Positions 1,257 to 33,364 of a DNA stretch of 64,000 nucleotides are shown here, piece after piece (the stretch's first letter is position 1; each line of letters begins with the position of its first letter). The stretch lies in NCBI GenBank assembly GCA_029351405.1, contig GCA_029351405.1_4841.1; one strand, given 5' to 3'. Source of the DNA: Escherichia coli. Its GTDB lineage: Bacteria; Pseudomonadota; Gammaproteobacteria; Enterobacterales; Enterobacteriaceae. The translations under genes and the position numbers were made by a program. Under the pieces are notes generated by a model. It was not told the DNA's origin, did not search any database, and saw nothing but the letters and a program-made list of their open reading frames with translations.

Positions 1257-1333
1257 GGTCCTGTAGCTCAGTCGGTTAGAGCAGTGAACTCATAATTCAT
1301 TGGTCATTGGTTCAAACCCAATCAGGATCACCA
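1257..1333 (+). tRNA. tRNA with CAT anticodon (Met, or Ile if lysidine-modified)
   Basis: Cloverleaf folded by eye: acceptor GGTCCTG/CAGGATC, anticodon stem GTGAA/TTCAT with loop CTCATAA, T-arm ATTGG-TTCAAAC-CCAAT, encoded CCA at 1331-1333. Confidence 0.75.
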
Positions 1334-1504
1334 TATTGAGGGGCGATAGTTTAATGGATAGCTGTCCGGACAGTGAATCCTCATAGAGAACGGCTGGGTG
1401 GCCAAACCCAGCAGGTGAGGTGAAAAGCCTCAGACCCCGCCAATACAGTTTGTTGTAAAATAAATGTTTGTTCAATAAACTTTATATGGTATAGTGATTT
1501 GCAA

Positions 1505-1580
1505 GACGATGTAGTTCAGTCGGTAGAACGGCGGTCTGTTAAACCGTATGTCGCAGGTTCAAGTCCTGCCATCGTCGCCA
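1505..1580 (+). tRNA. tRNA-Asn (GTT)
   Basis: Acceptor GACGATG/CATCGTC, D-arm GTTC-AGTCGGTA-GAAC, anticodon stem GCGGT/ACCGT with loop CTGTTAA, T-arm GCAGG-TTCAAGT-CCTGC, 3' GCCA. Confidence 0.8.
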
Positions 1581-1837
1581 GACAATGGGTGTGAACGAAA
1601 GTGAATAGGCATAAAGTACGCGACCGACAAGCTCCAAGCCTCTGTCCAATAGCCGAACGGAATCCGAAGACGACGATAGTAGCACTCACCAAATTCAGAG
1701 TGTAGAGGCTACAGTAGTGCGCACCTCACGGGTTGCTACACCGGACACTCTGATACAAATCTACCGCTGCGTGGATTAGCTGAGGAAGGATGGCCGATGT
1801 CCTCGAGCGTGGCCCAGCACGCAGCGGCAGACCAAAT

Positions 1838-1921
1838 GTGAGTGTGGCAGAGCGGTCGAATGCAGGAGACTGTAAATCTCCCCGTAACAGCGCGGTGGTT
1901 CGAATCCATCCACTCACACCA
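1838..1921 (+). tRNA. tRNA-Tyr (GTA), class II with long variable arm
   Basis: Acceptor GTGAGTG/CACTCAC, anticodon stem GGAGA/TCTCC with loop CTGTAAA, ~12 nt variable region, T-arm GGTGG-TTCGAAT-CCATC, 3' ACCA. Confidence 0.7.
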
Positions 1922-2141
1922 AACACAGTAAGCGTTGCAGCCAGCTGTGTATAAAATGGGGTGACTCCACATCGGAAACGATGCCCCAACTTCCAGAAAT
2001 GGTCGGGCGCAAAGCCTGTAAAGTTCCAGGAGATCGAACCAGAAGGCACTGGTCGCCAGTTAACCAATCGGCGCTGAGAAGCGCGGGGAGTTGGGCTACG
2101 GCAGATCAAATGCTCAATCGGGTGTGAAGCCCGTCCAAATT

Positions 2142-2230
2142 GGAAGGTTGCCCGAGAGGTTTAAGGGACTCGACTGCTAATCGAGTGGGGCTTTTAGCCC
2201 CCGAAGGTTCGAATCCTTCACCTTCCGCCA
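2142..2230 (+). tRNA. tRNA-Ser (GCT), class II with long variable arm
   Basis: Acceptor GGAAGGT/ACCTTCC, anticodon stem CTCGA/TCGAG with loop CTGCTAA, variable stem-loop GGGGCTTTTAGCCCC, T-arm GAAGG-TTCGAAT-CCTTC, 3' GCCA. Confidence 0.8.
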
Positions 2231-2477: not shown

Positions 2478-2600
2478 TCCCTGTCTTATTATCTTCTTAT
2501 CGACCCAAGCATGTCCTCCTTTATCGTAGTTTGTTCAATGATACAAAGGGGGTTTAAAATTTAACCGTTAACCCCCTATCATAGATTTGAGGATATACTA

Positions 2601-3245
2601 ATGCGTAATGTTTCTATCTGGGAATTGAACGAAGTGATTTCCCGTGACACCCCTCCAATTGTCAGACTCTTCCGATACAAGGGTGTCAAGCGTACTCTGA
2701 ATGAGTTCCTGTCGCCTGTTTACGTCTACCGTGATGGCGGGTTCTTCCGCCGCGATAAAAACATCCCGAACCTTGGTATGACGTTTGATTTGAGTATCAA
2801 AGGCCAGGTTGTATTGATGGGTTATGGTAGCCTGGAACAATCTGAGAAAGGCCAGGGCGCTCCACTTATGGTCTTCGGTTCGTTTGAACAAGCCGTGCAC
2901 TGGCTGATCAGAAACGGATATGATTTCTATGGCGAAGAAAGCGCCAATTGGCGTCGTCGCAAGGTCAAGTCTGTTGATTTCTACGCAGAGCGCAAGAAAT
3001 ATCTGGATATCGCTCATCAGTATGAGCAGTCTAAGAAATCCGTTCTAATCAAACCATGCGTTACGGTCGGTGAAGAAGTGGGTGTCGTGGATAATTCCGA
3101 TTTGAATCAGGCAATTAAATCTTTGAATCCAACTCCTCCGGCCAGTCGTGTTCTGAATGATCAGGGCGCTCCGGTAAAACAAAAGGTCAAGAAGCCGACT
3201 TTCATGGAAAACATGATGAAGTTCCTTCGTCTGTTCAAGAAATAA
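2601..3245 (+). CDS. hypothetical protein (214 aa), basic C-terminus
   Basis: ATG preceded by GAGGAT RBS; first ORF after the tRNA cluster; no motif recognised. Confidence 0.6.
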   Translation: MRNVSIWELNEVISRDTPPIVRLFRYKGVKRTLNEFLSPVYVYRDGGFFRRDKNIPNLGMTFDLSIKGQVVLMGYGSLEQSEKGQGAPLMVFGSFEQAVHWLIRNGYDFYGEESANWRRRKVKSVDFYAERKKYLDIAHQYEQSKKSVLIKPCVTVGEEVGVVDNSDLNQAIKSLNPTPPASRVLNDQGAPVKQKVKKPTFMENMMKFLRLFKK

Positions 3246-3314
3246 GCCGAGATTCTCCTTTTCTATACTCCTGTAGATACACTATGATAAGCCAATGTCT
3301 ACAGGAGAAATAGA

Positions 3315-4508
3315 ATGAACAAAACCATCTTCGATACCCTTTCCCTCGACCGCAACCTGGTCCATTGGGAAGATTATCTCTACAAGCACACCCCGTGCGA
3401 ACTTGTCGTCAACCCCGAAACCAACCAGCAGGTCTGGTTCAAGCGTGAAGATTATTTTGCGCCGCTGTCCAATTACGCGGATGGCCAACAGGGTATCAAC
3501 GGCAGCAAACTCCGCCAGGCCATCTGGCTGATGGTTGAGCACCTCAAGGCCGGAGGCTCCCCTGATATCATTCATGGTACTGTTGTTGGTAGCCCGCAGT
3601 CCCCTATGGCGACAGCAGTCTCTCGGCACTTCGGCGGCAAGACAACCACTGTGCTCGGAGCGACCAAACCCACCACCTGTATGAACCACGACATGGTGGC
3701 AATGTCAGCCTGGTTTGGTAGTGAGTTCAACTTCGTCGGCTCGGGTTACAACAGCACCATCCAGCCGCGCTGTAAGAAACTCATCGAGCAGGTGAACCCA
3801 AAGGCGTACTATCTGGAATATGGTATCACCCTCGACCATACAGTGCATTCTCCTGAGCGCATCGCTGGCTTCCATATGCTGGGTGGCGAGCAGGTTGCCA
3901 ACATTCCTGATCACATTACTGACCTGATCATCCCAGCCGGATCGTGCAACTCTTGCACAAGCATCCTGACCGGGCTGGCAATGCATCCGAAGCCTAATCT
4001 GAAGCGTGTGTATCTGATCGGCATCGGTCCTAACCGCCTTGACTTTATCGAGAGCCGTCTGCGCATCATCGGCAAACATGCCAATCTGCCGCACATTGTC
4101 GACTTCACCCGTCGCTATCACGACAACCCAGACTATGTACACGGCAAGAAGGAGCTTCAGCATGCCTCTAAGAGCGTTTCGCTGGCTGGCCTCCTAAGTG
4201 GTATCAGGCAGAAGGAAGAGCCAGAGGTCGTGCTTCCTCGCTTTGAGGTACACCATTGGGATCTTCATACCACTAATTGGGTTCGTTACAATGACCTGAT
4301 GGAATATCAGTGGGGTGATATTGAGTTGCATCCTCGCTATGAAGGCAAGGTCATGACCTGGGTTCAGCAGAACAAGCCAGAGCTGCTCAATGAGAACACT
4401 CTGTTCTGGATTGTGGGTAGCAAGCCGTACATTGAGCCAATGAAGGCAGCATGCCCTGAGCTGGCTATCCCTGAAACAGTTCCTGTAAACGATTTCACCC
4501 CTTCCTGA
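3315..4508 (+). CDS. PLP-dependent enzyme, fold-type II (ACC deaminase / D-cysteine desulfhydrase / cysteine synthase-like)
   Basis: 397 aa; KREDY...NGSKLRQAIWLM resembles the KRDD...GGNKxRKLE lysine-Schiff-base region of the ACC-deaminase/DcyD family; GGAG RBS upstream. Confidence 0.6.
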   Translation: MNKTIFDTLSLDRNLVHWEDYLYKHTPCELVVNPETNQQVWFKREDYFAPLSNYADGQQGINGSKLRQAIWLMVEHLKAGGSPDIIHGTVVGSPQSPMATAVSRHFGGKTTTVLGATKPTTCMNHDMVAMSAWFGSEFNFVGSGYNSTIQPRCKKLIEQVNPKAYYLEYGITLDHTVHSPERIAGFHMLGGEQVANIPDHITDLIIPAGSCNSCTSILTGLAMHPKPNLKRVYLIGIGPNRLDFIESRLRIIGKHANLPHIVDFTRRYHDNPDYVHGKKELQHASKSVSLAGLLSGIRQKEEPEVVLPRFEVHHWDLHTTNWVRYNDLMEYQWGDIELHPRYEGKVMTWVQQNKPELLNENTLFWIVGSKPYIEPMKAACPELAIPETVPVNDFTPS

Positions 4509-4652
4509 CCCTCCTGAATACCCCATACATTCCGTGTGGGGTATCTATGAAAACCTTCCTCCAATATTTCCGAGAGGCGTCCTGTACAAACCAGACCTCG
4601 CCAAGCGGGAAGCCTAAATACCCCATATGGCTAACCCACTGAGGAACCCAAC

Positions 4653-5111
4653 ATGCCAACATCCAAATTGTTTGAATCAGAATACACCAATGACATCCCT
4701 GTATGGACTGGTGTTCAAGACGGTATCACGATTGAGCTGTTTGATCGTGAAGAGACAGGCGCGGAAGAGATCTATGCAGGCGTTGAAGGCACTGATGTTG
4801 TCCGCGCCGCCGTAGCACTTGCCACCTTCCTGGAAGATGCACCGATTGATGGCGTGCCGTTCGAGGCGCACGTAGATCCCAAGGATCCGACCTCTATCAT
4901 CATTACAGTGAATGGAGTGCCATACACTTCGTACAGTATCGAGACGGACGAAGAGGGCAGCGGAGCGCTGTATATTGCCACCGACCTGCAGCTGGAAGAC
5001 GATGAGATGGATTATCTGATTCAGAACGGGGTACTGCCACCGTTTACCGATGAAGAACTGGACACGGAACTGGCCGCCGTCGGGGACGACGAAGACTTCT
5101 GGGAAGAATAA
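4653..5111 (+). CDS. hypothetical highly acidic protein (152 aa)
   Basis: Asp/Glu-rich throughout, ending ...AAVGDDEDFWEE; followed by a bidirectional terminator. Confidence 0.6.
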   Translation: MPTSKLFESEYTNDIPVWTGVQDGITIELFDREETGAEEIYAGVEGTDVVRAAVALATFLEDAPIDGVPFEAHVDPKDPTSIIITVNGVPYTSYSIETDEEGSGALYIATDLQLEDDEMDYLIQNGVLPPFTDEELDTELAAVGDDEDFWEE

Positions 5112-5142
5112 GAAAAGGGGCGTTAAGCCCCTTTCTTTATTT
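5111..5142. terminator. Bidirectional intrinsic terminator between convergent genes
   Basis: Hairpin AGGGGC-(GTTAA)-GCCCCT flanked by an A-run upstream and TTCTTTATTTC downstream. Confidence 0.6.
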
Positions 5143-5149
5143 CTTCACA

Positions 5150-5707
5150 TTAAAGGTGGGAATCCAGCCAGGCGTTCTTTTCGTTCTGCCACTCCCAAGC
5201 GGCCTGGCCGCCAGCCATGATCACTTCCAGGGAAGGAGTATTGTCATCCTCGCCGCCGTGAAGGTCAGGGTCGAAGCCGTCATCTTCAGGATCGTCTTCG
5301 CATTCATTCTGATAAGCGGAATATTCGATGTAATGGGCTTCAGCATCGCAATCCATGTCACCCAGAGCAGCCTCAAGAGTCATTTTACCTTCAGCGATCA
5401 GTTCGGCAGTCGCGTCGTCCAGGCCTGCGTCTTTCGCTTCAACGAACAGTTCGTGGCGTTTCTGGAAAAGGAAGAAGTTCATGGCTTCAATGCGCGAGTC
5501 GAAGTACTCTTTGCGGGGAATCATGATTTCACGACCATCGACTTTGCTTACCATCAGCAGGCATGAACCGTATTCAACCAGGTAGCGACCGCCTTTCACT
5601 GGGTTGGAACCGTCAATTGTGCCCAGAGTGGTGATTGCGCGGCCTTCTTCAGTACCGTACATTACAGTTTTGCCAGATTTGGATTGAGCGATAATTTCGA
5701 TTGCCAT
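5150..5707 (-). CDS. hypothetical protein with acidic C-terminal half (186 aa from internal Met)
   Basis: Start moved to MAIEII (CAT at 5705-5707) with AGGA RBS; the track ORF extends to 5794 through a low-complexity N-terminus. Confidence 0.55.
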   Translation of the reverse strand: MAIEIIAQSKSGKTVMYGTEEGRAITTLGTIDGSNPVKGGRYLVEYGSCLLMVSKVDGREIMIPRKEYFDSRIEAMNFFLFQKRHELFVEAKDAGLDDATAELIAEGKMTLEAALGDMDCDAEAHYIEYSAYQNECEDDPEDDGFDPDLHGGEDDNTPSLEVIMAGGQAAWEWQNEKNAWLDSHL

Positions 5708-5802
5708 GATGTATTTCCTTCTCTTCAGATTGTTGTTTGTTCGTACTACAATTAGAAGTATACGCCAGTTATTGAAGAAGTAAACTTTATTCAATAAATA
5801 TT

Positions 5803-6015
5803 TTAATAAATTTTGAACTCTGCTCCCCTGTACGTCGCCGTCCCTCGTTCTATGAGGCCGTCAGGGACAATTACCTTTGTTGGCCAACCACCATCTGGAG
5901 CCTTAATAGTCAGGCGCGTCTTATGATCACCCAGCTGTGTTTGTTCATAGATCCTTCCGCGTACTATCGTCGCCCCGCCCTGGGTGACAAGCAATCTCTT
6001 GTTTACCACATTCAT
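5803..6015 (-). CDS. hypothetical small protein (70 aa)
   Basis: ORF in the same orientation as its neighbours, bounded by terminator-like hairpins. Confidence 0.4.
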   Translation of the reverse strand: MNVVNKRLLVTQGGATIVRGRIYEQTQLGDHKTRLTIKAPDGGWPTKVIVPDGLIERGTATYRGAEFKIY

Positions 6016-6020
6016 TCCCT

Positions 6021-6052
6021 AAACACCAAAAGAAAGGGGAGTTTCCTCCCCT
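6021..6052 (-). terminator. Intrinsic terminator (minus strand)
   Basis: Hairpin AGGGGAG-(TTTC)-CTCCCCT with a T-run on the minus strand just after the 6058-6648 stop. Confidence 0.55.
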
Positions 6053-6057
6053 TGAAC

Positions 6058-6648
6058 TTATTTCTTCAGATCAGGCCACGCACCAGAGGTCGCAGTAGAC
6101 CCAGCTGGGGGAGCAGACTCAAGATCGGGAGAACCCGACTGAGTAACAACAGTGGGATCTTTCTGTACGACCCGAACCCCAAATTGCTTGAGAGCATCCA
6201 TAGCTTGGGCTTTTCGCCTGTTGCTTTTGTAGTGGTTGTAGCCTTTGATACCGAATGATGCACTAATTGCTGTCAATAACGAATAGGTATACCATTCAGG
6301 TGCGGTATCTAGTGCCTGAAGGCCACCGATTACTGCTTTGATGAAATCCCCTTTATGATACTCACCAGGGAACAGAATCAGTTCCACAACCGGAGCAGTC
6401 ATGACGAGGATGGCGGGTATGGCCAACACGATAGTCCAGAATTCGTCTTTCCAAGACCCGCCGACTTCGGTGATCTTAGACAGCTCCCAATCTGAGGAGG
6501 ACTTGATGGCCTCCAGCTTGACGTCGTGTTTGGCCTGTACAACTTCCCGCTTATATTGGATCAAATCAGTCCCGAGGTTCCAGAGTTGCTTGAGCGCCCC
6601 TGGGATCATACCAACGAGGGGGATTGCCATAATAAACTCCTTGGTCAA
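6058..6648 (-). CDS. hypothetical membrane protein (196 aa)
   Basis: Hydrophobic segments (IPLVGMIPGAL, FWTIVLAIPAILVMTAPVV); divergent from the DNA polymerase gene. Confidence 0.5.
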   Translation of the reverse strand: MTKEFIMAIPLVGMIPGALKQLWNLGTDLIQYKREVVQAKHDVKLEAIKSSSDWELSKITEVGGSWKDEFWTIVLAIPAILVMTAPVVELILFPGEYHKGDFIKAVIGGLQALDTAPEWYTYSLLTAISASFGIKGYNHYKSNRRKAQAMDALKQFGVRVVQKDPTVVTQSGSPDLESAPPAGSTATSGAWPDLKK

Positions 6649-6709
6649 TGAATGGCTCTATGGTTAAATATGCCCACGTGCTAACGGCACGGATAACCTG
6701 GAGAATTAC

Positions 6710-9709
6710 ATGACCGTTTTCTATACGAACGTTGCCCGAAGGGGCAATGACCTGTTGATTCGAATTGCAGATGACATGGGTAATCGCCGTCTGTTGAAAA
6801 AGAAATTCGAACCCACTCTCTATTTACCCACGGTTGACTATTCAAATGTTGAAAAGGTCGGCCTTCTCAATGAACCCCTGGCAGCCAAGCAGTTCCCTTC
6901 CATGCGTGACGCTGATAACTATCTTGAAGAGTACAAGGAAGTCCAGGGTGCTGCCATTTACGGGCAGACCGATTATGCATACCAGTTCATCGCCCATAGC
7001 TTTCCTGGAAAGATTGAGCCGGATTACTCCAACATCCATATTGCTAACCTCGATATCGAAGTATTCTCCGCCGGGTGGAAAGACGGAAAGATGACCAAAG
7101 GTCCATTCCCTCACCCAACTATTGAGCAGCAGACGTTCAAAGGGAATGAGGCGCGCATTCGCCGCTTCCATAAACAAGTGCTGGCCAACCATGACTTTGT
7201 CCGTGAGCACTTCCCTGGTTCTTTCATCAGCAACAACGTCACTGATCAGTTCCCTATCATTGACAGCAACGGCAAGATCACCCAAGACATGAATGCGGCG
7301 TTCCCCATTACCCTGATCCAGCTTCAGGATATGGCGACCAATAAGTTCATGGTCTGGGGTATGCCCTGTGCCAAAGATCGTAACAAATTCGCATACGACA
7401 CCGAAGACAAAGAGATCGGCGGCCTTGAGGTTGTTTATCAGGAGTTCACCACCGAACAAGATCTGCTGCGCTCGTTCCTAGACTTCTGGTCGGAGCGTCA
7501 GTTCGACGGCTGGACAGGCTGGAACATTGAAACGTTCGATAGCCCGTATCTTGTTGAGCGTATGAACCAGGTTCTGGGTGAGGCTGAAACGTCGCGCCTC
7601 AGTCCTTGGGGTATCATTAAGAAGCGTATCATTCGCGATAAGAAGGGCGATATCACGACATATCAGTTCGTGGGCTGTCCTATGCTCGATTATATGCAGA
7701 TCTACAAGAAACACACGTACACCACCCGTGAACGCTACTCTCTTGACTGGATTGCGTATTGTGAGCTGGGTGAGAAGAAGATGGACTACAGTGAGAGCAA
7801 GTCGCTCTTTGATCTGTACTTCAACGACTACTGCAAACACACCCGATATGGTATCAAAGACGTTAAGCTGGTGTGGCGACTTGAACAGAAGCTGCGCCTG
7901 CTCCAGCTGATGTTCGTCCTGGCCTACCGCACCAAGTCCAACTATGAAGACGGTCTGGGCACTGTGGCTCCGTGGCTGGCCATGTGCTACTATCGCCTGT
8001 ACGAGAAGGGGATAGTGCCTAAGATCCAGCGTGTATACGATGGTCCGACCGACTTTGAGGGTGCATACGTCATGGATGTGACACCAGGAATCTACTTCTG
8101 GGTCTTCTCGGAAGATTTGAACTCCCTGTATCCTCACATCATTCAGCAGTACAACCTCGGTCCAGAGACTATCGTTGGCGACAAACACCAGCGCCGTGAG
8201 ATCATTGAGGCTATGTGTGAAGAGCTGGCTGCTCAGATGAATAACATGGCAACGCCGATGCACAAACGTCGGTTGATGAAAGCCCTTCACGACAAGCTGT
8301 TGCGTGCGGTTGACGAACGCCTGCAGGTTGTTGATGAGTTGGTTGCCCTGGGTGAGTTCCACTTTGAAACCCTGCGCCGCTACAACGTGTCGTTCACGCC
8401 GAACGTTCAATTCTTCAGCAACGAGAAGATGTCGTTCCTGTCTGAAATCATGCGTGGTATCTACAGCGACCGTAAAGTAGAGAAAGCCAAGGGTCTGAAA
8501 TACGAGCAGTGGGCTGGTTGGTGTAAAGAGATGTCGAAGGGTGACTTCCATCTTGAGTCTGCCATGAAGTCTCGCTACTATGACCCAGAGTGGTATGAAG
8601 AGCACAAGAACATTGATCTTGATGCCCTGACTGAAGTGATGAAGAAGTGGGAAGATCTGGGTGTTGCTCAAGATACCCTTCAGCAAGGTCTGAAGATCTT
8701 GATGAATGCAGGTTATGGCGCGATCTCAAACGTCTGGTTCAAAGAGTACTTCAACCTCAACATTGCCGAAGCCATCACCACATCCGGTCAGCTGATCAAC
8801 AAGTGGAACAAGCGTTACACTGATGACTATCTGAACAAGCTGTGTGGTACAACAGGCCAGGACTTCGTCATCGCAGGGGATACCGACTCCAACTACATCT
8901 GCATTGAGCGTCTTGTCAAGCAGTTGTGGCCTGATGTTACTGACCATCATGTTATGGTTGATAATATCGACCAATGGATCAAAGACAACTACCAGCCGAA
9001 GACCAATGAGTGGGCACAGCTTCTGTGTAACACCATGAACGGATTTGAACAGCGCATGGTGTGGGAGCGTGAGGTCATTGCGTCAGCCGCTGTCTGGCGA
9101 GCCAAGAAGATGTATGCCATGGCAGTGTACGACAGTGAGGGTATCAAGTACGAGAAGCCGAAGATCAAGTTCAAAGGCCTGGAAGCCCGCAAGTCCACCA
9201 CGCCGGAATGGTGTCGTGAGCGTCTTGTCAAGTGCTATGAGAAGATCCTACTAGGCACCGAAGAGGAAGTGCAGACGCTCATCTCCCAGTACAAAGAGGA
9301 GTACATGAAACTCTCTGTAGACGATATCGCCAAGGCTTCCGGCGTGTCCGACATAGAGAAGTGTGTGGCTGCTGACGGATCGTTCATCTCTGGTGCTCAT
9401 TTTGCTGCCAAGGCTTGTGTGGGCTACAACCGTCTGGTTGAGAAGAACGAAGATCTGGGTCTACCGATGATCGAGTCGGGTGATAAGGTACAGATGGTGT
9501 TGTTGAAGCCAGGCAACCCATTCGGCCAGAATTACTTTGCATATCCTGAGTTCTTCCCTGAGGAGCTTGGTCTGGGTAAATGGGTGGATTATCAGGCGGC
9601 CTTTGAGAAGTCCTTCATTGATCCGATTCAGTCTATCCTCGACGTGGTCGGCTGGTCACACAAGCGCCGTGTGAACCTTCTTGCCATGATGCAAAAGAAG
9701 AAAGGTTGA
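6710..9709 (+). CDS. 43: DNA polymerase, family B (T4 gp43-like)
   Basis: 999 aa; N-terminus KFPSMRDADNYL...ANLDIEV parallels T4 gp43 KFPSMKDARDW...ANCDIEV; motif B KILMNAGYG and motif C GDTDSNY; GGAG RBS. Confidence 0.95.
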   Translation: MTVFYTNVARRGNDLLIRIADDMGNRRLLKKKFEPTLYLPTVDYSNVEKVGLLNEPLAAKQFPSMRDADNYLEEYKEVQGAAIYGQTDYAYQFIAHSFPGKIEPDYSNIHIANLDIEVFSAGWKDGKMTKGPFPHPTIEQQTFKGNEARIRRFHKQVLANHDFVREHFPGSFISNNVTDQFPIIDSNGKITQDMNAAFPITLIQLQDMATNKFMVWGMPCAKDRNKFAYDTEDKEIGGLEVVYQEFTTEQDLLRSFLDFWSERQFDGWTGWNIETFDSPYLVERMNQVLGEAETSRLSPWGIIKKRIIRDKKGDITTYQFVGCPMLDYMQIYKKHTYTTRERYSLDWIAYCELGEKKMDYSESKSLFDLYFNDYCKHTRYGIKDVKLVWRLEQKLRLLQLMFVLAYRTKSNYEDGLGTVAPWLAMCYYRLYEKGIVPKIQRVYDGPTDFEGAYVMDVTPGIYFWVFSEDLNSLYPHIIQQYNLGPETIVGDKHQRREIIEAMCEELAAQMNNMATPMHKRRLMKALHDKLLRAVDERLQVVDELVALGEFHFETLRRYNVSFTPNVQFFSNEKMSFLSEIMRGIYSDRKVEKAKGLKYEQWAGWCKEMSKGDFHLESAMKSRYYDPEWYEEHKNIDLDALTEVMKKWEDLGVAQDTLQQGLKILMNAGYGAISNVWFKEYFNLNIAEAITTSGQLINKWNKRYTDDYLNKLCGTTGQDFVIAGDTDSNYICIERLVKQLWPDVTDHHVMVDNIDQWIKDNYQPKTNEWAQLLCNTMNGFEQRMVWEREVIASAAVWRAKKMYAMAVYDSEGIKYEKPKIKFKGLEARKSTTPEWCRERLVKCYEKILLGTEEEVQTLISQYKEEYMKLSVDDIAKASGVSDIEKCVAADGSFISGAHFAAKACVGYNRLVEKNEDLGLPMIESGDKVQMVLLKPGNPFGQNYFAYPEFFPEELGLGKWVDYQAAFEKSFIDPIQSILDVVGWSHKRRVNLLAMMQKKKG

Positions 9710-9762
9710 TTCAATAAACCAAAGGGGGATATAATTCCCCCTGTTAACCCTTTGACAAACAG

Positions 9763-10113
9763 GTGATTGAAATGAAACTCAATAAGATTCTTCTGGTGTG
9801 CGCTCTGGCTTTCTCTACCACTGCGTGCTCCACCCTTCTGGACGTTGCGTCTACTGTAGACCTTGACGCGCCGACGTTCACCAATGAGCAGGCCGTGTCC
9901 AAGATGGAAGACACTATTAAGGCACATGCAGCACTGGACAACACTACTCCGGGTCCGCTCCAAACTGTCTGCAACTATGACGATTCCATCCAGGAAGACG
10001 AAACTTACCACTGCATCACCTACGTGAAGCAGGCCTCCGTCGTTCTGTATGCAGATTGTACCGAAGAACAGTGTGTTGCTACAGGCTACGATAAAGTTGA
10101 GGAAGACAAATGA
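9763..10113 (+). CDS. putative secreted/lipoprotein (116 aa)
   Basis: Signal-peptide-like N-terminus KILLVCALAFSTTAC with a Cys after the hydrophobic core; alternative start at 9772. Confidence 0.5.
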   Translation: MIEMKLNKILLVCALAFSTTACSTLLDVASTVDLDAPTFTNEQAVSKMEDTIKAHAALDNTTPGPLQTVCNYDDSIQEDETYHCITYVKQASVVLYADCTEEQCVATGYDKVEEDK

Positions 10114-10889
10114 ACAACCTGGTTTGTATCTATGATATGAAATCAAAGGTCGGTGGTCTGTATCGCGTCCTCGTGGATGTTGACCTGACGTTGGTCGACA
10201 GCCTCTCCCCTTGGGTGCAGTGGTTCAACGAAGAGAACATCGCCGCCGCTGCTATCGCTACGGGGGACCATAAGTCATACCAGTTCCAGCCGATTACCAA
10301 AGAGTGTTATATGTCCCATGCTGGCGACCTGGCTATTCTGATGCGTGAACGTGCGCATCCGGCGTGGCTATACCATGAAGTCCAATTGGGGATGCACAAA
10401 CAACGTGTGCCAAGCGGTAACGATCCTATGGATTGGTGGCGTCGCCCTGACTTGTACGCCAAGATGAACCCGCTCCCCGGTGCTTACGAGTTCCTGGTAA
10501 ATCTGAAGGATATCTTGCTTGAAGATTTCGACAATGTTGAATTCATCGCGGTGTCGAAGTGCGAGCCGGAACACGAGCGCAGCAAGCGTCAGTTTGTCTA
10601 TGATAAGTTCCCTGGTATCTTCAACGGGTTTGTCAGCACCGACGAAAAGCATCTGCTGGCTGGCGATGTCCTGATTGATGACAATCCGAAGTATGTTGAG
10701 CCGTGTGGTCTGAACAACATCTTTGTCATCTTTGTTCCTCAGGGCAATTATGAAAAACTGGATCTTTCGAACTCGGAAGATATGCTTTATATTAAACCAG
10801 TAGAAGGCCAGAACCACTTCGACTTCCTGAATCACAATATTATTGAAGTGGTCAATCGCCTGATTAGTCATTATCAATACGTCCGATAG
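10110..10889 (+). CDS. HAD-superfamily hydrolase, 5'(3')-deoxyribonucleotidase-like
   Basis: 259 aa; N-terminal VLVDVDLTLVD matches the HAD DxDxT phosphatase motif; ATGA overlap with the upstream stop. Confidence 0.55.
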   Translation: MNNLVCIYDMKSKVGGLYRVLVDVDLTLVDSLSPWVQWFNEENIAAAAIATGDHKSYQFQPITKECYMSHAGDLAILMRERAHPAWLYHEVQLGMHKQRVPSGNDPMDWWRRPDLYAKMNPLPGAYEFLVNLKDILLEDFDNVEFIAVSKCEPEHERSKRQFVYDKFPGIFNGFVSTDEKHLLAGDVLIDDNPKYVEPCGLNNIFVIFVPQGNYEKLDLSNSEDMLYIKPVEGQNHFDFLNHNIIEVVNRLISHYQYVR

Positions 10890-10898
10890 GAGGACATC

Positions 10899-11204
10899 GT
10901 GCAAGATCAGAATAAGTTCGGGGAAATCCCCGACAAGCGTTCCGGTGATAGCGACATGGATGGCGTGATTAACCATGTGAACAACTTCATTCGCCAGCAG
11001 GAGACTCCGACTCCTATCGGCGCAGCCAAGGCTCTTCATGATGTACTGGTGAAGATCGGCCAGCGCTCTGAAGCGGATGAAATCTTCTATAACTTCGACG
11101 ACCAGTATAAAGTTAAGTTTGAAGAAAACGGTCGTCCGCATGTTGCTGTGTTCTGGGCACCTTGGCTGGGCGGCGTGAGCTGGCGTATTGAGGATGCTGT
11201 GTAA
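10899..11204 (+). CDS. hypothetical protein (101 aa)
   Basis: GTG start preceded by TAGGAGGA RBS. Confidence 0.45.
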   Translation: MQDQNKFGEIPDKRSGDSDMDGVINHVNNFIRQQETPTPIGAAKALHDVLVKIGQRSEADEIFYNFDDQYKVKFEENGRPHVAVFWAPWLGGVSWRIEDAV

Positions 11205-12121
11205 TGGCTAAAATAATTGTAGTGAAGGGAACAAGTGGCGTGGGCAAGGGTACGAGAGTGGTCCAGTTCATCGAATGGCTCCGTACGAAGCTGGAGCCTA
11301 CCGAACTGACCTACACCGTTGGTGACAAGACTCGCCCGTTTGGCCTGAAGTTCGGAGAGCTGAAGTTAATCTTCGTTGGACAGTACACCGTGTCTAACAA
11401 ATCCGGCCTGGCTTCCTGGACTTCAATGGATGCAATCCATGCTGCTACAGGCTCAGGCGATATTGCTCGTGATCTAATCAAGTGCTGGTTGGTTCAGGGA
11501 TACACTCTGGTGTGCGAGGGTGAACCCCTCATGCTGTCGGACAAATGGCGTCCTGAATGGATGTTCAAGAACTATCCGATTGAATCATTGGCGCTGCTGT
11601 ACTTTGCGTACCCCGACCGCTATCAGTACGATGCTCGTATCCGTGGTCGCTCTGGTAAAGAAGCAGGGAACTCCGGCTGGTCGCGCAACGAATCTTACTC
11701 CAAGGAGTTTGAGAAGTCGAAGGCCGAAATGCTGGCGCTGGGCTTCACTGTGGCTGTTGATGATTACAGCGGACAGGATATCCTGTATAAATCACCGAAT
11801 GCCAACACCCAGGAGTTCCTGACCAGCCAGCAGTCAGAGTTGGCGGTACTACCGTTCGACGCCCCGCTTTGGGTGGTGGGTAACGCGATTTGCCATCAGA
11901 TACGGTCCGAACTGCGTGAAGTTAACATGGACACCAAAGACTTTTACGCCTACTGTGAAACCAATCCGATGACCCGTGAGGTCGGCGGTGATGATCCTTT
12001 GGCGCACAGAGTGCCTGAGAAGCCGCAGAAGGCATCCAAAACTAAAACCAAGGCGAGCGCCCAGCCAGAAGTAACGAAGGCAGCGTCGCGCTCTCTCCTT
12101 GACCTGATGAAGAAGGGGTGA
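11204..12121 (+). CDS. P-loop kinase-like protein (candidate nucleotide or DNA-base kinase)
   Basis: 305 aa; N-terminal IVVKGTSGVGKGT glycine-rich P-loop; distinct from the dNMP kinase at 52608-53177. Confidence 0.5.
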   Translation: MAKIIVVKGTSGVGKGTRVVQFIEWLRTKLEPTELTYTVGDKTRPFGLKFGELKLIFVGQYTVSNKSGLASWTSMDAIHAATGSGDIARDLIKCWLVQGYTLVCEGEPLMLSDKWRPEWMFKNYPIESLALLYFAYPDRYQYDARIRGRSGKEAGNSGWSRNESYSKEFEKSKAEMLALGFTVAVDDYSGQDILYKSPNANTQEFLTSQQSELAVLPFDAPLWVVGNAICHQIRSELREVNMDTKDFYAYCETNPMTREVGGDDPLAHRVPEKPQKASKTKTKASAQPEVTKAASRSLLDLMKKG

Positions 12122-12321
12122 TCATGAAACGGTTGTCTAATTATCTGTTGTTCATCGGTCTGATTATGGCAGCTATTTCAATGTGCGTTGGCCTGGCGTA
12201 TCATTTCACTTCTCTGGATTTAACGACCTCAGAGAAGTTGAATGTGACTGTGATGTACTGTATTGGCGCGGTGATGTCTATCGGCGCTGCTGGTTACAAA
12301 ATATTCAAGGAACCAAAATGA
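12118..12321 (+). CDS. small membrane protein (67 aa)
   Basis: Two hydrophobic helices; ATGA overlaps at both ends. Confidence 0.4.
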   Translation: MIMKRLSNYLLFIGLIMAAISMCVGLAYHFTSLDLTTSEKLNVTVMYCIGAVMSIGAAGYKIFKEPK

Positions 12322-12677
12322 AAATTCAAATCCCTCGCGATGCTGTAGCTGTTGCGATTGACTACACCGGAAACGCCAAGCACATTACTGCCGTGCGCCT
12401 GATTCCTGAAAAGAACTGCGTCATCCCTCAGTTCCAGCTGAATGCCAATCCGTCGTCCAAAGACTTCGGCAAGTGGTTACAGGCTGCTCCGTTCCGTACC
12501 CAGACGAATGCTCAGATGTTCATCTCGGGTAAGACCCACACTGCAGCCCGTCTGTGGTTCGTGACCGCTGACCGTCGCTTTGTTGATATGTGGGAACGTC
12601 CGATGGGGTTCGTGAAGCCGGAAGATATTCAGCTGGCTCCTGAAGAGGAAGCGAAAGATGAAAATCAAGTCGGTTGA
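12318..12677 (+). CDS. hypothetical protein (119 aa)
   Basis: Start set at MKIQIP (ATG 12318) overlapping the upstream TGA; the track ORF starts earlier at 12183 inside the upstream gene. Confidence 0.45.
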   Translation: MKIQIPRDAVAVAIDYTGNAKHITAVRLIPEKNCVIPQFQLNANPSSKDFGKWLQAAPFRTQTNAQMFISGKTHTAARLWFVTADRRFVDMWERPMGFVKPEDIQLAPEEEAKDENQVG

Positions 12678-12843
12678 TTTTATCTTCATGATGCTGATGT
12701 TCGTTATCTTCACGGTATCGCTCGTCGGCGCCATGGTCACAGAAGGGGTTCCACAACGTCCCTTCCTGGTGATTTGTCCTGTATCGATCGCCACTTTCTT
12801 CTATCTGGCGTTCCGTGTTGAATTGGGGAACAAACTCGAATGA
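12658..12843 (+). CDS. small membrane protein (61 aa)
   Basis: Hydrophobic FIFMMLMFVIFTVSLVGAMV; translationally coupled to its neighbours. Confidence 0.4.
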   Translation: MKIKSVDFIFMMLMFVIFTVSLVGAMVTEGVPQRPFLVICPVSIATFFYLAFRVELGNKLE

Positions 12844-14075
12844 CACATCTATCTAAAATGCCGACGGGCTATACGCCCCCGGCTGAATGGAAGTACCCGA
12901 TTGACCTATCTGTTGACTACCGTAAACCTGAGAATCGCATGTACCTGCTCAAGGCTTGGGTGGAGGCGCTGTCCTACACAGAAGAGCACAACCAGCAGAT
13001 GCGTCTGATGGACTATGCGATTGAAGTCACTGAAGGCATCAGCCTCGAACAGAAAGTCGAGCGCAAGATCTGGATGGCATTCCTGTGGGGTTGTTGCTAT
13101 AACGCTGTCGGACCGTGGACGATCTACAGTGAGTTCCCTATGCCACCCCAGTCCAAAGAAGAGATGCAGCGCTTCTCTGATTGGTATAATCTGAACTTTG
13201 AACGCATGCGATTCGATACCGACTGTCGCTACCGCAAGTCCAAGATGATTCCGTGTGTTCAGTCCTATATTGACTGGCTGGCTGGCCGTACTCAATATGA
13301 CGCTTTCCGTGGGATGTTGGTGTGCATCGATAAGACAGAACAATTCACCCAGCTGTGGGACACGGCGATGTCCTGGAAATACTTCGGTCGCCTGAGCGCC
13401 TGGAACTTCCTGGAAGCCCTGAACATGGTCTTCGGGAACGAATACACCATTGACGTCCCTGGCTTCATGCTGCGTGATCGTGATGGAAGCGAGTCCAACC
13501 GTAATGGCGCGGCGTTCTTGTCCAACCGTGACGATTGGGTGACTAAACACGGGAAGAAAAAGATCAACGGTTGCCCTATCACGGATGAAGAGTGTGACAT
13601 CCTTGAGGCCGACCTTGAGCAGGCGTTCCAGGATTGTGTGGCTGAGTTCGGACACCTGACGTTCATCAACCGTCTGAACTTTGAAACCTCCGGTGCTTGT
13701 TGGCTGAAGAAATTCTTCCGACTGAAGAATACCCGTTATATCGGGTGGGACGCAGAGCGTACCTGGGATGAGATAGACTACATGGAACGCGTCTGGCCTG
13801 AATACTCCTGCGCAGCGCTCTGGGAAGCCCGTTCTCTCTGGCTACCAGATACCCTGTTGTGCGAAAAGGCTCCTGCAGGGCACGTTCCAGGCGTCCAGAA
13901 GTGGAAGATGCCTGTGTTCTTTGAGACTGGTGTTCCTCTGCATATCTGGCACCTGCAAAAGGGTACGCGCTGGGAACCATCCGAGGTCTGTACGAACCTG
14001 AAGATGCCTGTGCGCAAGGTTGAGGACAAGTCGAAGTCCAGCAGCGTCAACCTCATGGCACTCTTGAAACGCTGA
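12840..14075 (+). CDS. hypothetical protein (411 aa), candidate DNA-modification enzyme
   Basis: Long ORF overlapping the upstream stop; no catalytic motif recognised by eye; sits downstream of the P-loop kinase. Confidence 0.55.
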   Translation: MTHLSKMPTGYTPPAEWKYPIDLSVDYRKPENRMYLLKAWVEALSYTEEHNQQMRLMDYAIEVTEGISLEQKVERKIWMAFLWGCCYNAVGPWTIYSEFPMPPQSKEEMQRFSDWYNLNFERMRFDTDCRYRKSKMIPCVQSYIDWLAGRTQYDAFRGMLVCIDKTEQFTQLWDTAMSWKYFGRLSAWNFLEALNMVFGNEYTIDVPGFMLRDRDGSESNRNGAAFLSNRDDWVTKHGKKKINGCPITDEECDILEADLEQAFQDCVAEFGHLTFINRLNFETSGACWLKKFFRLKNTRYIGWDAERTWDEIDYMERVWPEYSCAALWEARSLWLPDTLLCEKAPAGHVPGVQKWKMPVFFETGVPLHIWHLQKGTRWEPSEVCTNLKMPVRKVEDKSKSSSVNLMALLKR

Positions 14076-14111
14076 TATAAATATCCTCGCCTATAAAGCG
14101 AGGATATTATC

Positions 14112-14279
14112 ATGTTACAAGATCTGCTGGTTTATGCGCTTCCTGGCGCGGTTGTCGGCTTCATCGCTGGCGCTCTGGTCTTCCGTAAACACGCGCAAGA
14201 CGGTGAGGTGATTGTTCAGAAGGGTAAAGATATCCTAGAACAAATCGAAGCCAAACTGGACGAGCTGAAGAAAAAGTAA
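14112..14279 (+). CDS. small membrane protein (55 aa, below the ORF-track cutoff)
   Basis: ATG at 14112 with GAGGAT RBS; hydrophobic LLVYALPGAVVGFIAGALVF; followed by a terminator. Confidence 0.35.
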   Translation: MLQDLLVYALPGAVVGFIAGALVFRKHAQDGEVIVQKGKDILEQIEAKLDELKKK

Positions 14280-14306
14280 TCTGACTGGGGTTGCTTCCTT
14301 CAATAA

Positions 14307-14346
14307 AGGGGAATGGGTTATTATTAGCCCGTTCCCCTTTCTTTTT
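14307..14346 (+). terminator. Rho-independent terminator
   Basis: Hairpin GGGGAA(T)GGG-(TTATTATTAG)-CCC(G)TTCCCC followed by TTTCTTTTT; TTCAATAAA motif immediately upstream. Confidence 0.6.
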
Positions 14347-14361
14347 GCAAGGATATACATC

Positions 14362-14559
14362 ATGGAAACCCAAGATTATAAGATCTTAGTGACAACCGTT
14401 GGTTTCGACGGGAAGAATCAATCTATTGCAGTAGACACTTCCGTTCTGGAGTTCAAGGACAAGAGTTCGGCAGAAACGGCGTTTGCTCATTTGGTGGAAT
14501 CACAAAGATATATGAGCACTTTTATGCGTGTCAAACAAACATACACCAAACTCTATTAA
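14362..14559 (+). CDS. hypothetical protein (65 aa)
   Basis: ORF after the terminator in the plus-strand early-type block. Confidence 0.45.
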   Translation: METQDYKILVTTVGFDGKNQSIAVDTSVLEFKDKSSAETAFAHLVESQRYMSTFMRVKQTYTKLY

Positions 14560-14571
14560 GAGGATTTCACT

Positions 14572-14796
14572 ATGGCAATGCAACGAATTGAAGATATGGA
14601 CTCCCTGGATATCGAATCTATGGTGTCTGTAATGCTCGAAGAAGATCGCAAGACCCCTGTGGTACAGTATCAGATGCCGGAATTGGGCGACGCTGATGGG
14701 CTGTGGAAAATGCTGAACGACAACAAATCCTCCGGTAAGAATGGGTTTGTCCGTGGCGAACTGAATATCATTTGTGTCGGAGGGTGTACAAGATGA
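14572..14796 (+). CDS. hypothetical protein (74 aa)
   Basis: Acidic N-terminus; stop overlaps the next start. Confidence 0.45.
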   Translation: MAMQRIEDMDSLDIESMVSVMLEEDRKTPVVQYQMPELGDADGLWKMLNDNKSSGKNGFVRGELNIICVGGCTR

Positions 14797-15011
14797 TCAA
14801 GAATACTCGAACAATGAAGCGCGCAATCGCTCACTGTGTCCATTCAGTGGCAACTATTATGTTCCGCCACCACATCACATTTGATGAAGCACTGGACCCA
14901 CAGTACCATGAAGAGCGTTGGGATTTGTTGTTAAAGAACGGTGCCAATCCTGAGCATAAAGATCAACTCCTTGGGATGACCAAGGCGCAGCTCGTCGGTG
15001 AATCCAAATGA
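14793..15011 (+). CDS. hypothetical protein (72 aa)
   Basis: Start set at ATG 14793 in an ATGA overlap; the track ORF begins at 14772. Confidence 0.45.
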   Translation: MIKNTRTMKRAIAHCVHSVATIMFRHHITFDEALDPQYHEERWDLLLKNGANPEHKDQLLGMTKAQLVGESK

Positions 15012-33151: not shown

Positions 33152-33364
33152 ATGACTACAGCAAGAAGTTACAGAAAGAACTTCAACATCGAAGGGATTG
33201 AGTTCTACCACCATTACGCCCAGGACACACATGGCACTGTATGCAACACATACATGCTTGACGGTCACCCTGTAGGTTCCGATGAGTTCTATCGTGTTCT
33301 GCGCGAGTGTACAGAAGAATCCCTTCCGTACATCATCAACGCCAACGGATTGATTAAACCATGA
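33152..33364 (+). CDS. hypothetical protein (70 aa)
   Basis: Stop overlaps the QueC-like gene start. Confidence 0.45.
   Translation: MTTARSYRKNFNIEGIEFYHHYAQDTHGTVCNTYMLDGHPVGSDEFYRVLRECTEESLPYIINANGLIKP

What the first reader, a model, noticed from the sequence alone, without database searches (positions are those of the whole stretch)
3315..4508. PLP-dependent fold-type II enzyme at the head of the early region
The KREDY...NGSKLRQ region matches the Schiff-base lysine neighbourhood of the ACC deaminase / D-cysteine desulfhydrase / cysteine synthase family. Such enzymes do amino-acid beta-elimination or beta-replacement chemistry, which is unusual for a T4-like phage. It could supply or tailor an amino-acid-derived moiety for DNA base hypermodification, or act as an auxiliary metabolic gene.
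Basis: partly seen in the sequence, partly recalled or inferred. Interest (0 to 1): 0.55.

Follow-up and report, generated by a model that had tools for sequence, protein, structure and literature searches.

The report
Known phage DNA-modifying PLP decarboxylase
This gene is the close counterpart (91% identical) of Salmonella phage ViI gp226, an enzyme already shown to remove CO2 from serine attached to thymine in phage DNA, so it is a correct but already explained finding.

Summary

The window comes from an Agtrevirus-type Ackermannviridae (ViI-like) phage. The protein is 91% identical to ViI gp226. Lee et al. (PNAS 2018; NAR 2021) purified gp226 and showed it to be a PLP-dependent decarboxylase. 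It converts 5-O-serinylthymidine in DNA into 5-(2-aminoethoxy)methyl-dU (5-NeOmdU). Their predicted aldimine lysine, K92, is this Lys65.

Orthologs of the other pathway enzymes are in the window: both 5-hmdU DNA kinases, the serine:DNA transferase, and a thymidylate-synthase-like putative dUMP hydroxymethylase.

The chemistry is alpha-decarboxylation on DNA, not beta-elimination, and the gene is a conserved gene of this phage family rather than an oddity.

Verdict: already known, low interest. Two points remain open. No structure is solved, and this is a fold-type II decarboxylase, a fold that reviews do not list for decarboxylases.

The parts
3315..4508 (+). PLP-dependent decarboxylase of the 5-NeOmdU pathway (ortholog of Salmonella phage ViI gp226 / Vi01_182 / YP_004327553), 397 aa
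   Evidence: ORF. 91% identity over 394 aa to ViI gp226. PHROG 3650 at E=5e-239. Fold-type II model. Function of ViI gp226 shown in PMC8989533.
3441..3455 (+). KREDY motif (K43-Y47). K43, R44 and D46 are invariant in the family. It aligns with KRED(C/D) of ACC deaminase and DcyD.
3498..3518 (+). NGSKLRQ motif. Lys65 (codon 3507-3509) is the predicted internal-aldimine (Schiff-base) lysine. It equals K92 of ViI gp226, K51 of ACCD and DcyD, and K36 of M6 gp52.
   Evidence: K92 and K36 are named in PMC8989533
3591..3599 (+). S93-P94-Q95 loop, aligned with S78-N79-Q80 of ACC deaminase and S78-N79-H80 of DcyD. S93 and Q95 are invariant. The Asn is replaced by Pro.
3939..3953 (+). G209-S210-C211-N212-S213, the predicted PLP phosphate-binding loop. 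It aligns with VTGST of yeast ACCD and GSAGT of DcyD.
4329..4349 (+). HPRYEGK motif (H339-K345). Y342 aligns with ACCD Tyr294 and DcyD Tyr287. E343 aligns with ACCD Glu295 (Thr288 in DcyD). H339, P340, Y342, E343 and K345 are invariant.
3268..3307 (+). Inverted repeat (hairpin) just upstream of the start codon. Its 3' arm contains the Shine-Dalgarno AGGAG. It is a possible translational control element; its role was not tested.
   Evidence: -20.8 kcal/mol, z -4.9; unique in window; sequence-conserved in pSal-SNUABM-02 and ViI
11204..12121 (+). 5-hmdU DNA kinase 2 (ortholog of ViI gp243)
   Evidence: 85% identity; Pfam HMUD2 PF18747 E=3.5e-157
12840..14075 (+). Amino acid:DNA transferase (ortholog of ViI gp247, the serine:DNA transferase). 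It makes the O-serinyl-thymidine substrate of the decarboxylase.
   Evidence: 90% identity; Pfam ADDT PF18724 E=1e-59; function in PMC8989533
54220..54891 (-). 5-hmdU DNA kinase (ortholog of ViI gp67). The alignment starts at residue 5 of the listed ORF, so the true start is probably the ATG at 54879.
   Evidence: 88% identity; ViI gp67 kinase activity in PMC8989533
53174..54220 (-). Thymidylate-synthase homolog (ortholog of ViI thyA-like Vi01_060c). It is the presumed dUMP hydroxymethylase that supplies 5-hmdUMP.
   Evidence: Pfam Thymidylat_synt E=1.5e-15; 74% identity to Vi01_060c; the hydroxymethylase role is inferred (stated for an Ackermannviridae phage in the bioRxiv preprint read)

Best explanation
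The gene encodes the last enzyme of the 5-NeOmdU thymidine-hypermodification pathway of ViI-like (Ackermannviridae) phages.

Pathway, as shown for ViI and inferred here by orthology:
1. A thymidylate-synthase-like enzyme makes 5-hmdUMP.
2. The phage polymerase incorporates it into DNA as 5-hmdU.
3. A 5-hmdU DNA kinase phosphorylates the hydroxymethyl group in DNA.
4. The amino-acid:DNA transferase replaces the phosphate with the side-chain oxygen of free L-serine, giving 5-O-serinylthymidine.
5. This PLP enzyme takes the free alpha-amine of the DNA-tethered serine into an external aldimine, displacing Lys65. It removes the alpha-carboxylate as CO2 and releases 5-(2-aminoethoxy)methyl-2'-deoxyuridine.

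The modified base replaces a fraction of T (about 40% in ViI) and blocks many restriction endonucleases.

Inferred, not shown: the scaffold is an ACC-deaminase/D-cysteine-desulfhydrase-like fold-type II enzyme. The invariant Glu343 sits at the position of ACCD Glu295, which contacts the pyridine nitrogen. There it would keep the cofactor protonated as a strong electron sink, as the acidic residue does in fold-type I and III decarboxylases.
For: Orthology: 91% identity over 394 aa to ViI gp226, with K65 aligned on the published K92. Gene order is the same as in ViI (Vi01_181 - gp226 - Vi01_184 ... DNA polymerase ... gp243 ... gp247).

Function of ViI gp226 (PMC8989533 and PMC5889632): the purified protein is yellow with a 410-425 nm absorbance. 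It converts O-SerT DNA to the 301-u nucleoside with loss of one labelled carbon. Leaving it out of lysate mixtures gives a product 44 u heavier.

Pathway completeness in the window: gp243 ortholog 85%, gp247 ortholog 90%, gp67 ortholog 88%, thyA-like 74%, with Pfam HMUD2 and ADDT hits.

Fold and active site.

Linkage in distant homologs: P0071 is adjacent to an ADDT gene, and P0120 sits with Tet_JBP and ADDT.

Agtrevirus relatives SKML-39 and AG3, whose orthologs are 95% identical, are listed among ViI-like phages predicted to carry 5-NeOmdU. A Vibrio ViI-like phage, 1.255.O, was measured to carry the 301-Da nucleoside, and another Ackermannviridae phage was measured to carry 5-NeOmdU.
Against: Nothing found here contradicts it. 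Three caveats remain. No experiment exists on this particular phage or protein, so the function is transferred by orthology. The Pfam PALP hit is below the gathering threshold, and NCBIfam has no model for the family. The roles assigned to Glu343, Tyr342, Ser93 and the G209-S213 loop rest on sequence and profile alignment to ACCD and DcyD plus a predicted model without cofactor, not on a solved structure. The gp160 (aGPT-Pplase1) ortholog is not in this window; it lies elsewhere in ViI, and its necessity is unknown.
Confidence: 0.93

Rival explanations
1. It is an auxiliary metabolic enzyme acting on free amino acids. Candidates are the threonine or serine dehydratase (ammonia-lyase) named in many GenBank annotations, or an ACC deaminase/D-cysteine desulfhydrase doing beta- or gamma-elimination.
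For: GenBank and UniRef names such as 'threonine dehydratase' and 'threonine ammonia lyase'. The nearest solved structures are ACCD and DCyD. The Tyr-Glu pair of true ACC deaminases is conserved.
Confidence: 0.03
2. It belongs to the same pathway class but gives a different end product in this Agtrevirus-type phage. The transferase might load another amino acid, so the decarboxylase would produce a different amine.
For: Only ViI, CBA6, CBA120, a Vibrio phage and one further Ackermannviridae phage have measured nucleosides. Pplase2 (AADT) ligand choice varies among phage clusters.
Against: The transferase is 90% identical and the decarboxylase 91% identical to the ViI enzymes. A ViI-like Vibrio phage, a group whose orthologs are only about 50% identical in this protein, still carries the same 301-Da nucleoside.
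Confidence: 0.03
3. It is a non-catalytic PLP-fold protein (a pseudoenzyme) with a structural or regulatory role.
For: The Pfam score is sub-threshold. There is a variable, low-confidence loop at residues 282-303.
Against: The lysine, the phosphate-loop glycine and serine, and the Tyr-Glu pair are invariant. The ViI ortholog binds PLP and is catalytically active.
Confidence: 0.01

Closest known systems
Salmonella phage ViI gp226 (Vi01_182, YP_004327553), PLP-dependent O-serinylthymidine decarboxylase (Lee et al., NAR 2021, PMC8989533)
   Same: 91% identical over 394 aa. Same gene neighbourhood. Same predicted Schiff-base lysine (K92 = K65). The same partner genes are present (gp67, gp243, gp247, thyA-like).
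   Different: The window protein lacks a 27-residue N-terminal segment that follows Met-Asn in ViI. This is a real indel, not an annotation difference. The host phage belongs to the Agtrevirus group (Aglimvirinae) rather than Kuttervirus. The neighbouring Vi01_183 ortholog is absent.
Pseudomonas phage M6 gp52 (YP_001294560), PLP-dependent C-alpha-glycinylthymidine decarboxylase
   Same: Same role: decarboxylation of an amino acid attached to thymine in DNA. Shares the KRED...APL...SK(L/I)R motif, with K36 aligned on K65.
   Different: Only a remote relative (hhalign probability 55%, 22% identity over 177 columns; 278 aa against 397 aa). Its substrate is C-linked glycine made by a radical-SAM isomerase, and its product is 5-NedU.
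ACC deaminase (1rqx, 1f2d), D-cysteine desulfhydrase (4d8t, E. coli DcyD) and the ACCD homologue PH0054 (1j0a): the ACCD/DCyD branch of fold-type II PLP enzymes
   Different: Identity is 13-19%. There are about 120 extra residues, comprising an N-terminal segment and insertions around 256-310 that include a variable low-confidence loop at 282-303. Asn79 is replaced by Pro94. The reaction is alpha-decarboxylation rather than ring opening or beta-elimination. The substrate is a DNA-tethered amino acid rather than a free one.
Classical PLP-dependent amino-acid decarboxylases (fold type I groups I-III; fold type III group IV)
   Same: Same net chemistry: PLP external aldimine, loss of CO2, reprotonation (PMC11350588). 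An acidic residue is predicted at the pyridine nitrogen, as with the Glu of ornithine decarboxylase (PMC6411801).
   Different: The fold is unrelated. Reviews list decarboxylases only in fold types I and III, and this family is fold type II. No decarboxylase appears among the structural neighbours.

Membership tests
ViI gp226-type thymidine-hypermodification PLP decarboxylase (PHROG 3650) | Close full-length sequence similarity to the biochemically characterised ViI gp226 | tested here: met
   91% identity and 96% positives over 394 aa with no gaps; PHROG 3650 at E=5e-239, full length
ViI gp226-type thymidine-hypermodification PLP decarboxylase (PHROG 3650) | Predicted internal-aldimine lysine (ViI K92) conserved | tested here: met
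   K65 aligns with K92 and is invariant in 54 homologs
ViI gp226-type thymidine-hypermodification PLP decarboxylase (PHROG 3650) | Same genome carries a 5-hmdU DNA kinase and an amino acid:DNA transferase (clade 2 aGPT-Pplase) that make the substrate | tested here: met
   gp243, gp247 and gp67 orthologs are in the window. ADDT is adjacent or nearby in distant homologs.
ViI gp226-type thymidine-hypermodification PLP decarboxylase (PHROG 3650) | Decarboxylates O-serinylthymidine in DNA to 5-NeOmdU; binds PLP | not testable with these tools
   Shown for ViI gp226 only (PMC8989533). Needs biochemistry or nucleoside LC-MS for this phage.
Fold-type II (tryptophan-synthase-beta-like) PLP-dependent enzymes, Pfam PALP PF00291 | Two-domain alpha/beta fold of the TrpB/OASS/ACCD type | tested here: met
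Fold-type II (tryptophan-synthase-beta-like) PLP-dependent enzymes, Pfam PALP PF00291 | Score above the Pfam gathering threshold | tested here: not met
   30.1 bits against a cut-off of 35, E=3.9e-7, covering only profile positions 8-202 of 295. Several homologs do carry a precomputed PF00291 hit. The family is a divergent member.
Fold-type II (tryptophan-synthase-beta-like) PLP-dependent enzymes, Pfam PALP PF00291 | N-terminal-domain Schiff-base lysine and a phosphate-binding loop after a central beta-strand | tested here: met
   K65 aligns with K51. G209-S213 aligns with VTGST (ACCD) and GSAGT (DcyD). G209 is invariant, and S210, N212 and S213 are at least 90% conserved. The loop is not glycine-rich as in OASS or TrpB.
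ACC deaminase / D-cysteine desulfhydrase family (functional membership) | Ser78-Asn79-Gln/His80 loop, Tyr294, and Glu295 (ACCD) or Thr/Ser (DCyD) | tested here: inconclusive
   The Ser, Gln, Tyr and Glu equivalents are present and invariant, but Asn79 is replaced by Pro94. It is structurally the closest branch, at only 13-19% identity.
ACC deaminase / D-cysteine desulfhydrase family (functional membership) | Catalyses ACC ring opening or D-cysteine beta-elimination on free amino acids | not testable with these tools
   The ortholog's demonstrated reaction is decarboxylation of a DNA-bound amino acid. I do not file it as a functional member.

The most novel reading that the evidence does not exclude
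The gp226 family is a genuine fold-type II PLP alpha-decarboxylase, a reaction class that current classifications confine to fold types I and III. On this reading it arose by re-tooling an ACC-deaminase-like active site. The pyridine-N glutamate (Glu343) and the stacking tyrosine (Tyr342) were kept. The Ser-Asn-Gln substrate loop was altered to Ser-Pro-Gln, so that the carboxylate rather than a side-chain bond lies perpendicular to the cofactor. Added N-terminal and 256-310 segments would let it reach a modified base in double-stranded DNA, presumably by flipping it out. A minor extra: the sequence-invariant hairpin that buries the ribosome-binding site (3268-3307) might time the enzyme's translation.
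Probability: 0.45. Interest if true: 0.4.

Novelty: already known. Interest (0 to 1): 0.15.

Why it matters
The gene makes the phage's DNA resistant to many restriction enzymes by completing the 5-NeOmdU modification, so it matters for phage-host arms races and for phage therapy candidates in the Ackermannviridae. That role was established in 2018-2021 for the ViI ortholog, so finding the gene here adds only one more ortholog. The scientific value left is enzymological. No structure of this family is solved; the closest PDB entries are at or below 19% identity. It is also unexplained how an ACC-deaminase-like fold-type II scaffold performs decarboxylation on a base within DNA. For the scan itself, it shows that the first-stage reader can pick a true hypermodification enzyme from raw sequence.

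Tried and rejected
- A single-sequence phmmer search against PDB gave only spurious HIV integrase hits (E 0.3-1.6). I discarded these and used a profile search instead.
- NCBIfam has no model for this protein.
- The afdb50 fold library was unavailable. BFVD returned only a split ortholog from Serratia phage IME250 and distant giant-virus PLP enzymes.
- I first assumed that the longer ViI (424 aa) and pSal-SNUABM-02 (410 aa) annotations were over-extended starts. Aligning the DNA showed that all three use the same ATG and that the difference is a real in-frame indel after Met-Asn, so I dropped that idea.
- I looked for further copies of the upstream hairpin, as a possible phage regulatory motif, and found none in the window. 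Its stems are identical in ViI and pSal-SNUABM-02, so covariation could not be assessed. It has no T-run, and the terminator scan did not call it.
- I considered the 'threonine dehydratase/ammonia lyase' annotation and rejected it. Those enzymes are more distant structural neighbours than ACCD and DCyD, and the ortholog's activity is known.
- I considered that the 256-310 insertion might be a conserved DNA-binding element. Residues 282-303 are low-confidence and absent or variable in many homologs, so no such claim is made.

Full report
**Observation**

The ORF is exactly as described: 3315..4508 on the + strand, 397 aa, ATG start. An AGGAG Shine-Dalgarno sequence lies 7 nt upstream. KREDY is residues 43-47 (nt 3441-3455). 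NGSKLRQ is residues 62-68 (nt 3498-3518), with the Lys65 codon at 3507-3509.

Pfam PALP (PF00291) matches residues 26-249 at E=3.9e-7. The score is 30.1 bits, below the 35-bit gathering cut-off. PHROGs places the protein full-length in phrog_3650, 'unknown function', at E=5e-239. NCBIfam has nothing.

**What the window is**

A tblastn search against phage genomes finds the protein in 348 records. Almost all are Ackermannviridae phages (Salmonella, Klebsiella, Escherichia, Dickeya, Serratia, Shigella) or ViI-like Vibrio phages. At the DNA level, nt 2500-15000 is 97.4% identical to Escherichia phage AV101 and about 92% to SKML-39 and AG3. That puts the window in the Agtrevirus group (taxonomy line).

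The window carries T4-like replication genes:
- DNA polymerase at 6710-9709
- topoisomerase II subunits, ligase, DnaB-like helicase, UvsX and gp32

It is nevertheless a ViI-like phage, not a T4-like phage.

**Identity with a characterised enzyme**

Two papers from the Weigele laboratory cover this gene family.

Lee et al. 2018 (PMC5889632) found that ViI and relatives replace about 40% of thymidine with 5-(2-aminoethoxy)methyl-2'-deoxyuridine (5-NeOmdU). Lysates expressing ViI gp67, gp160, gp226, gp243 and gp247 rebuilt the modification on 5-hmdU DNA.

Lee et al. 2021 (PMC8989533) purified the enzymes and showed:
- gp67 and gp243 are 5-hmdU DNA kinases.
- gp247 transfers free L-serine onto the phosphorylated base, giving 5-O-serinylthymidine.
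- gp226 is a yellow, PLP-containing protein that decarboxylates this DNA-bound serine to 5-NeOmdU.
- K92 is the predicted aldimine lysine, from Phyre2 modelling on 1j0a.

ViI gp226 is Vi01_182. The window protein is 91% identical to it over 394 residues without gaps, and Lys65 aligns on K92.

The 27-residue offset is a real indel. The window, pSal-SNUABM-02 and ViI all start at the same AGAAATAGA-ATG-AAC context. ViI has 27 extra codons after Met-Asn and pSal-SNUABM-02 has 13.

**Genomic linkage**

Gene order matches ViI. The other pathway genes are in the window:

| Coordinates | Strand | ViI ortholog | Identity | Other evidence |
|---|---|---|---|---|
| 11204-12121 | + | gp243, 5-hmdU DNA kinase 2 | 85% | Pfam HMUD2 E=3.5e-157 |
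| 12840-14075 | + | gp247, serine:DNA transferase | 90% | Pfam ADDT E=1e-59 |
| 54220-54891 | − | gp67, 5-hmdU DNA kinase | 88% | |
| 53174-54220 | − | thyA-like Vi01_060c, presumed dUMP hydroxymethylase | 74% | Pfam Thymidylat_synt |

The enzyme is far better conserved than its immediate neighbours, which are only 63-64% identical to their ViI orthologs.

The linkage also holds for remote homologs taken from metagenomes:
- P0071 (44% identity) overlaps an ADDT gene.
- P0120 (38%) lies with Tet_JBP and ADDT genes.
- P0101 (39%) directly follows a radical-SAM-like gene, as M6 gp52 follows gp53.

**Fold and active site**

I aligned 54 homologs, the most distant 42% identical to the window protein. 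The invariant residues are K43, R44, D46, N62, G63, K65, R67, S93, Q95, H105, Q150, Y169, G170, Q193, G209, G220, G236, P239, R248, Y325, H339, P340, Y342, E343, K345, W365 and G368.

The profile finds ACC deaminases 1rqx and 1f2d (E about 1e-6), D-cysteine desulfhydrase 4d8t, and 1j0a in the PDB. It aligns to E. coli DcyD over 281 columns at 86% probability. These alignments give this residue map:

| Window residue | ACCD / DcyD equivalent |
|---|---|
| K65 | Lys51 |
| S93-P94-Q95 | Ser78-Asn79-Gln80 (ACCD); Ser78-Asn79-His80 (DcyD) |
| G209-S213 | phosphate-binding loop |
| Y342 | Tyr294 (ACCD); Tyr287 (DcyD) |
| E343 | Glu295 (ACCD); Thr288 (DcyD) |

The AlphaFold2 model is confident (pLDDT 91.1, pTM 0.90), apart from a variable loop at residues 282-303.

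M6 gp52, the other characterised DNA-amino-acid decarboxylase, is only a remote relative. Its published K36 still aligns on K65.

**Mechanism**

Shown for the ViI ortholog: the enzyme binds PLP and removes CO2 from serine that is ether-linked through its side chain to the 5-methyl of thymine in DNA. The free alpha-amine is what allows Schiff-base formation.

Inferred here by orthology: the same reaction occurs in this phage, with Lys65 as the internal-aldimine lysine.

Inferred from alignment and from established knowledge of ACC deaminase (my own knowledge, not a tool result):
- Glu295 hydrogen-bonds the pyridine nitrogen.
- Tyr294 packs on the cofactor.
- The Glu295/Thr difference separates ACCD from DCyD.

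On that basis, Glu343 would keep the pyridine nitrogen protonated and favour the quinonoid intermediate needed for decarboxylation. This parallels the Glu of ornithine decarboxylase (PMC6411801). The Asn-to-Pro change in the Ser-Asn-Gln loop may help re-orient the substrate carboxylate. These two points are hypotheses.

**Comparison with the known, and novelty**

The protein is a member of the gp226 family, and the defining features that can be tested in silico are met. It is not a functional ACC deaminase, D-cysteine desulfhydrase or threonine dehydratase, although GenBank records often name it so.

The finding is already known. The 2018 paper even lists SKML-39, AG3 and LIMEstone among ViI-like phages predicted to carry 5-NeOmdU. 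A 2026 preprint re-confirms the gene set and the modified nucleoside in another Ackermannviridae phage.

One aspect is under-discussed. A 2024 review classifies PLP-dependent decarboxylases as fold type I or III only (PMC11350588), whereas this family is fold type II. No structure of it, or of any relative above 19% identity, is in the PDB.

**Verdict**

Novelty is 'already known' and interest is low (0.15). The most novel reading still open concerns how an ACC-deaminase-like scaffold became a DNA-directed decarboxylase.

Noticed in passing
window 3268-3307: A perfect inverted repeat, CTCCTGTAGA / TCTACAGGAG, extends to an 18-bp interrupted stem. Its 3' arm contains the Shine-Dalgarno sequence of the decarboxylase gene. 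The RNA fold is -20.8 kcal/mol with z=-4.9. It is unique in the window. It is sequence-identical, apart from one loop base, in ViI and pSal-SNUABM-02, although the flanking proteins are only 63-64% identical. There is no T-run, so it is not an intrinsic terminator. It may be a translational control or RNA-processing element.
   Followed up: partly
window 3315-3325 (compare L002:15539-15625 and L001:7959-8000): There is an in-frame indel directly after the Met-Asn start. ViI carries 27 extra codons and pSal-SNUABM-02 carries 13 relative to the window. More distant homologs have still longer N-terminal extensions. The N-terminus seems freely variable.
   Followed up: partly
window 4509-4652: ViI and pSal-SNUABM-02 have two small genes after the decarboxylase (Vi01_183 and Vi01_184). 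The window has only the Vi01_184 ortholog (4653-5111, 64% identity). Nothing resembles Vi01_183 in the 144-nt gap.
   Followed up: partly
window 10110-10889 (+): An NT5C-type 5'(3')-deoxyribonucleotidase gene sits between the DNA polymerase and the 5-hmdU DNA kinase 2 gene (Pfam NT5C E=1e-8). It might shape the dTMP/5-hmdUMP pools in a phage that only partly replaces thymidine. Not examined.
   Followed up: no
window 33361-34050 (+): A QueC-like ORF (Pfam QueC E=2e-6, N-terminal part only), corresponding to the ViI 'QueC-like queuosine biosynthesis' gene Vi01_023. Its role in a thymidine-modifying phage is unclear.
   Followed up: no
window 1257-2230 (+): A cluster of four tRNA genes (Met-CAT, Asn-GTT, Tyr-GTA, Ser-GCT) lies upstream of the region.
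   Followed up: no
window 54220-54891 (-): The listed ORF of the gp67-type kinase begins at a TTG. The alignment to ViI gp67 starts at its fifth residue, a Met, so the true start is probably the ATG at 54879. RefSeq annotates ViI gp67 and M6 gp54 as 'terminase small subunit', although both were shown to be 5-hmdU DNA kinases.
   Followed up: partly
L006:8995-11041, L007:3264-5310, L008:3408-8344, L005:10001-12233: Remote homologs of the decarboxylase (38-44% identity) occur in other gene sets. One sits directly after a radical-SAM-like gene and between two ParB_N genes (L006, L007). One sits with Tet_JBP, ParB_N and ADDT genes (L008). One overlaps an ADDT gene and lies near a glycosyltransferase (L005). 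These may make other, uncharacterised thymidine modifications.
   Followed up: partly
BFVD entries A0A1J0MFX9 and A0A1J0MGP1 (Serratia phage vB_Sru_IME250): In this phage the ortholog is annotated as two separate proteins of 241 and 170 aa, one of them named 'DNA repair protein'. This is probably a frameshift or sequencing error.
   Followed up: no
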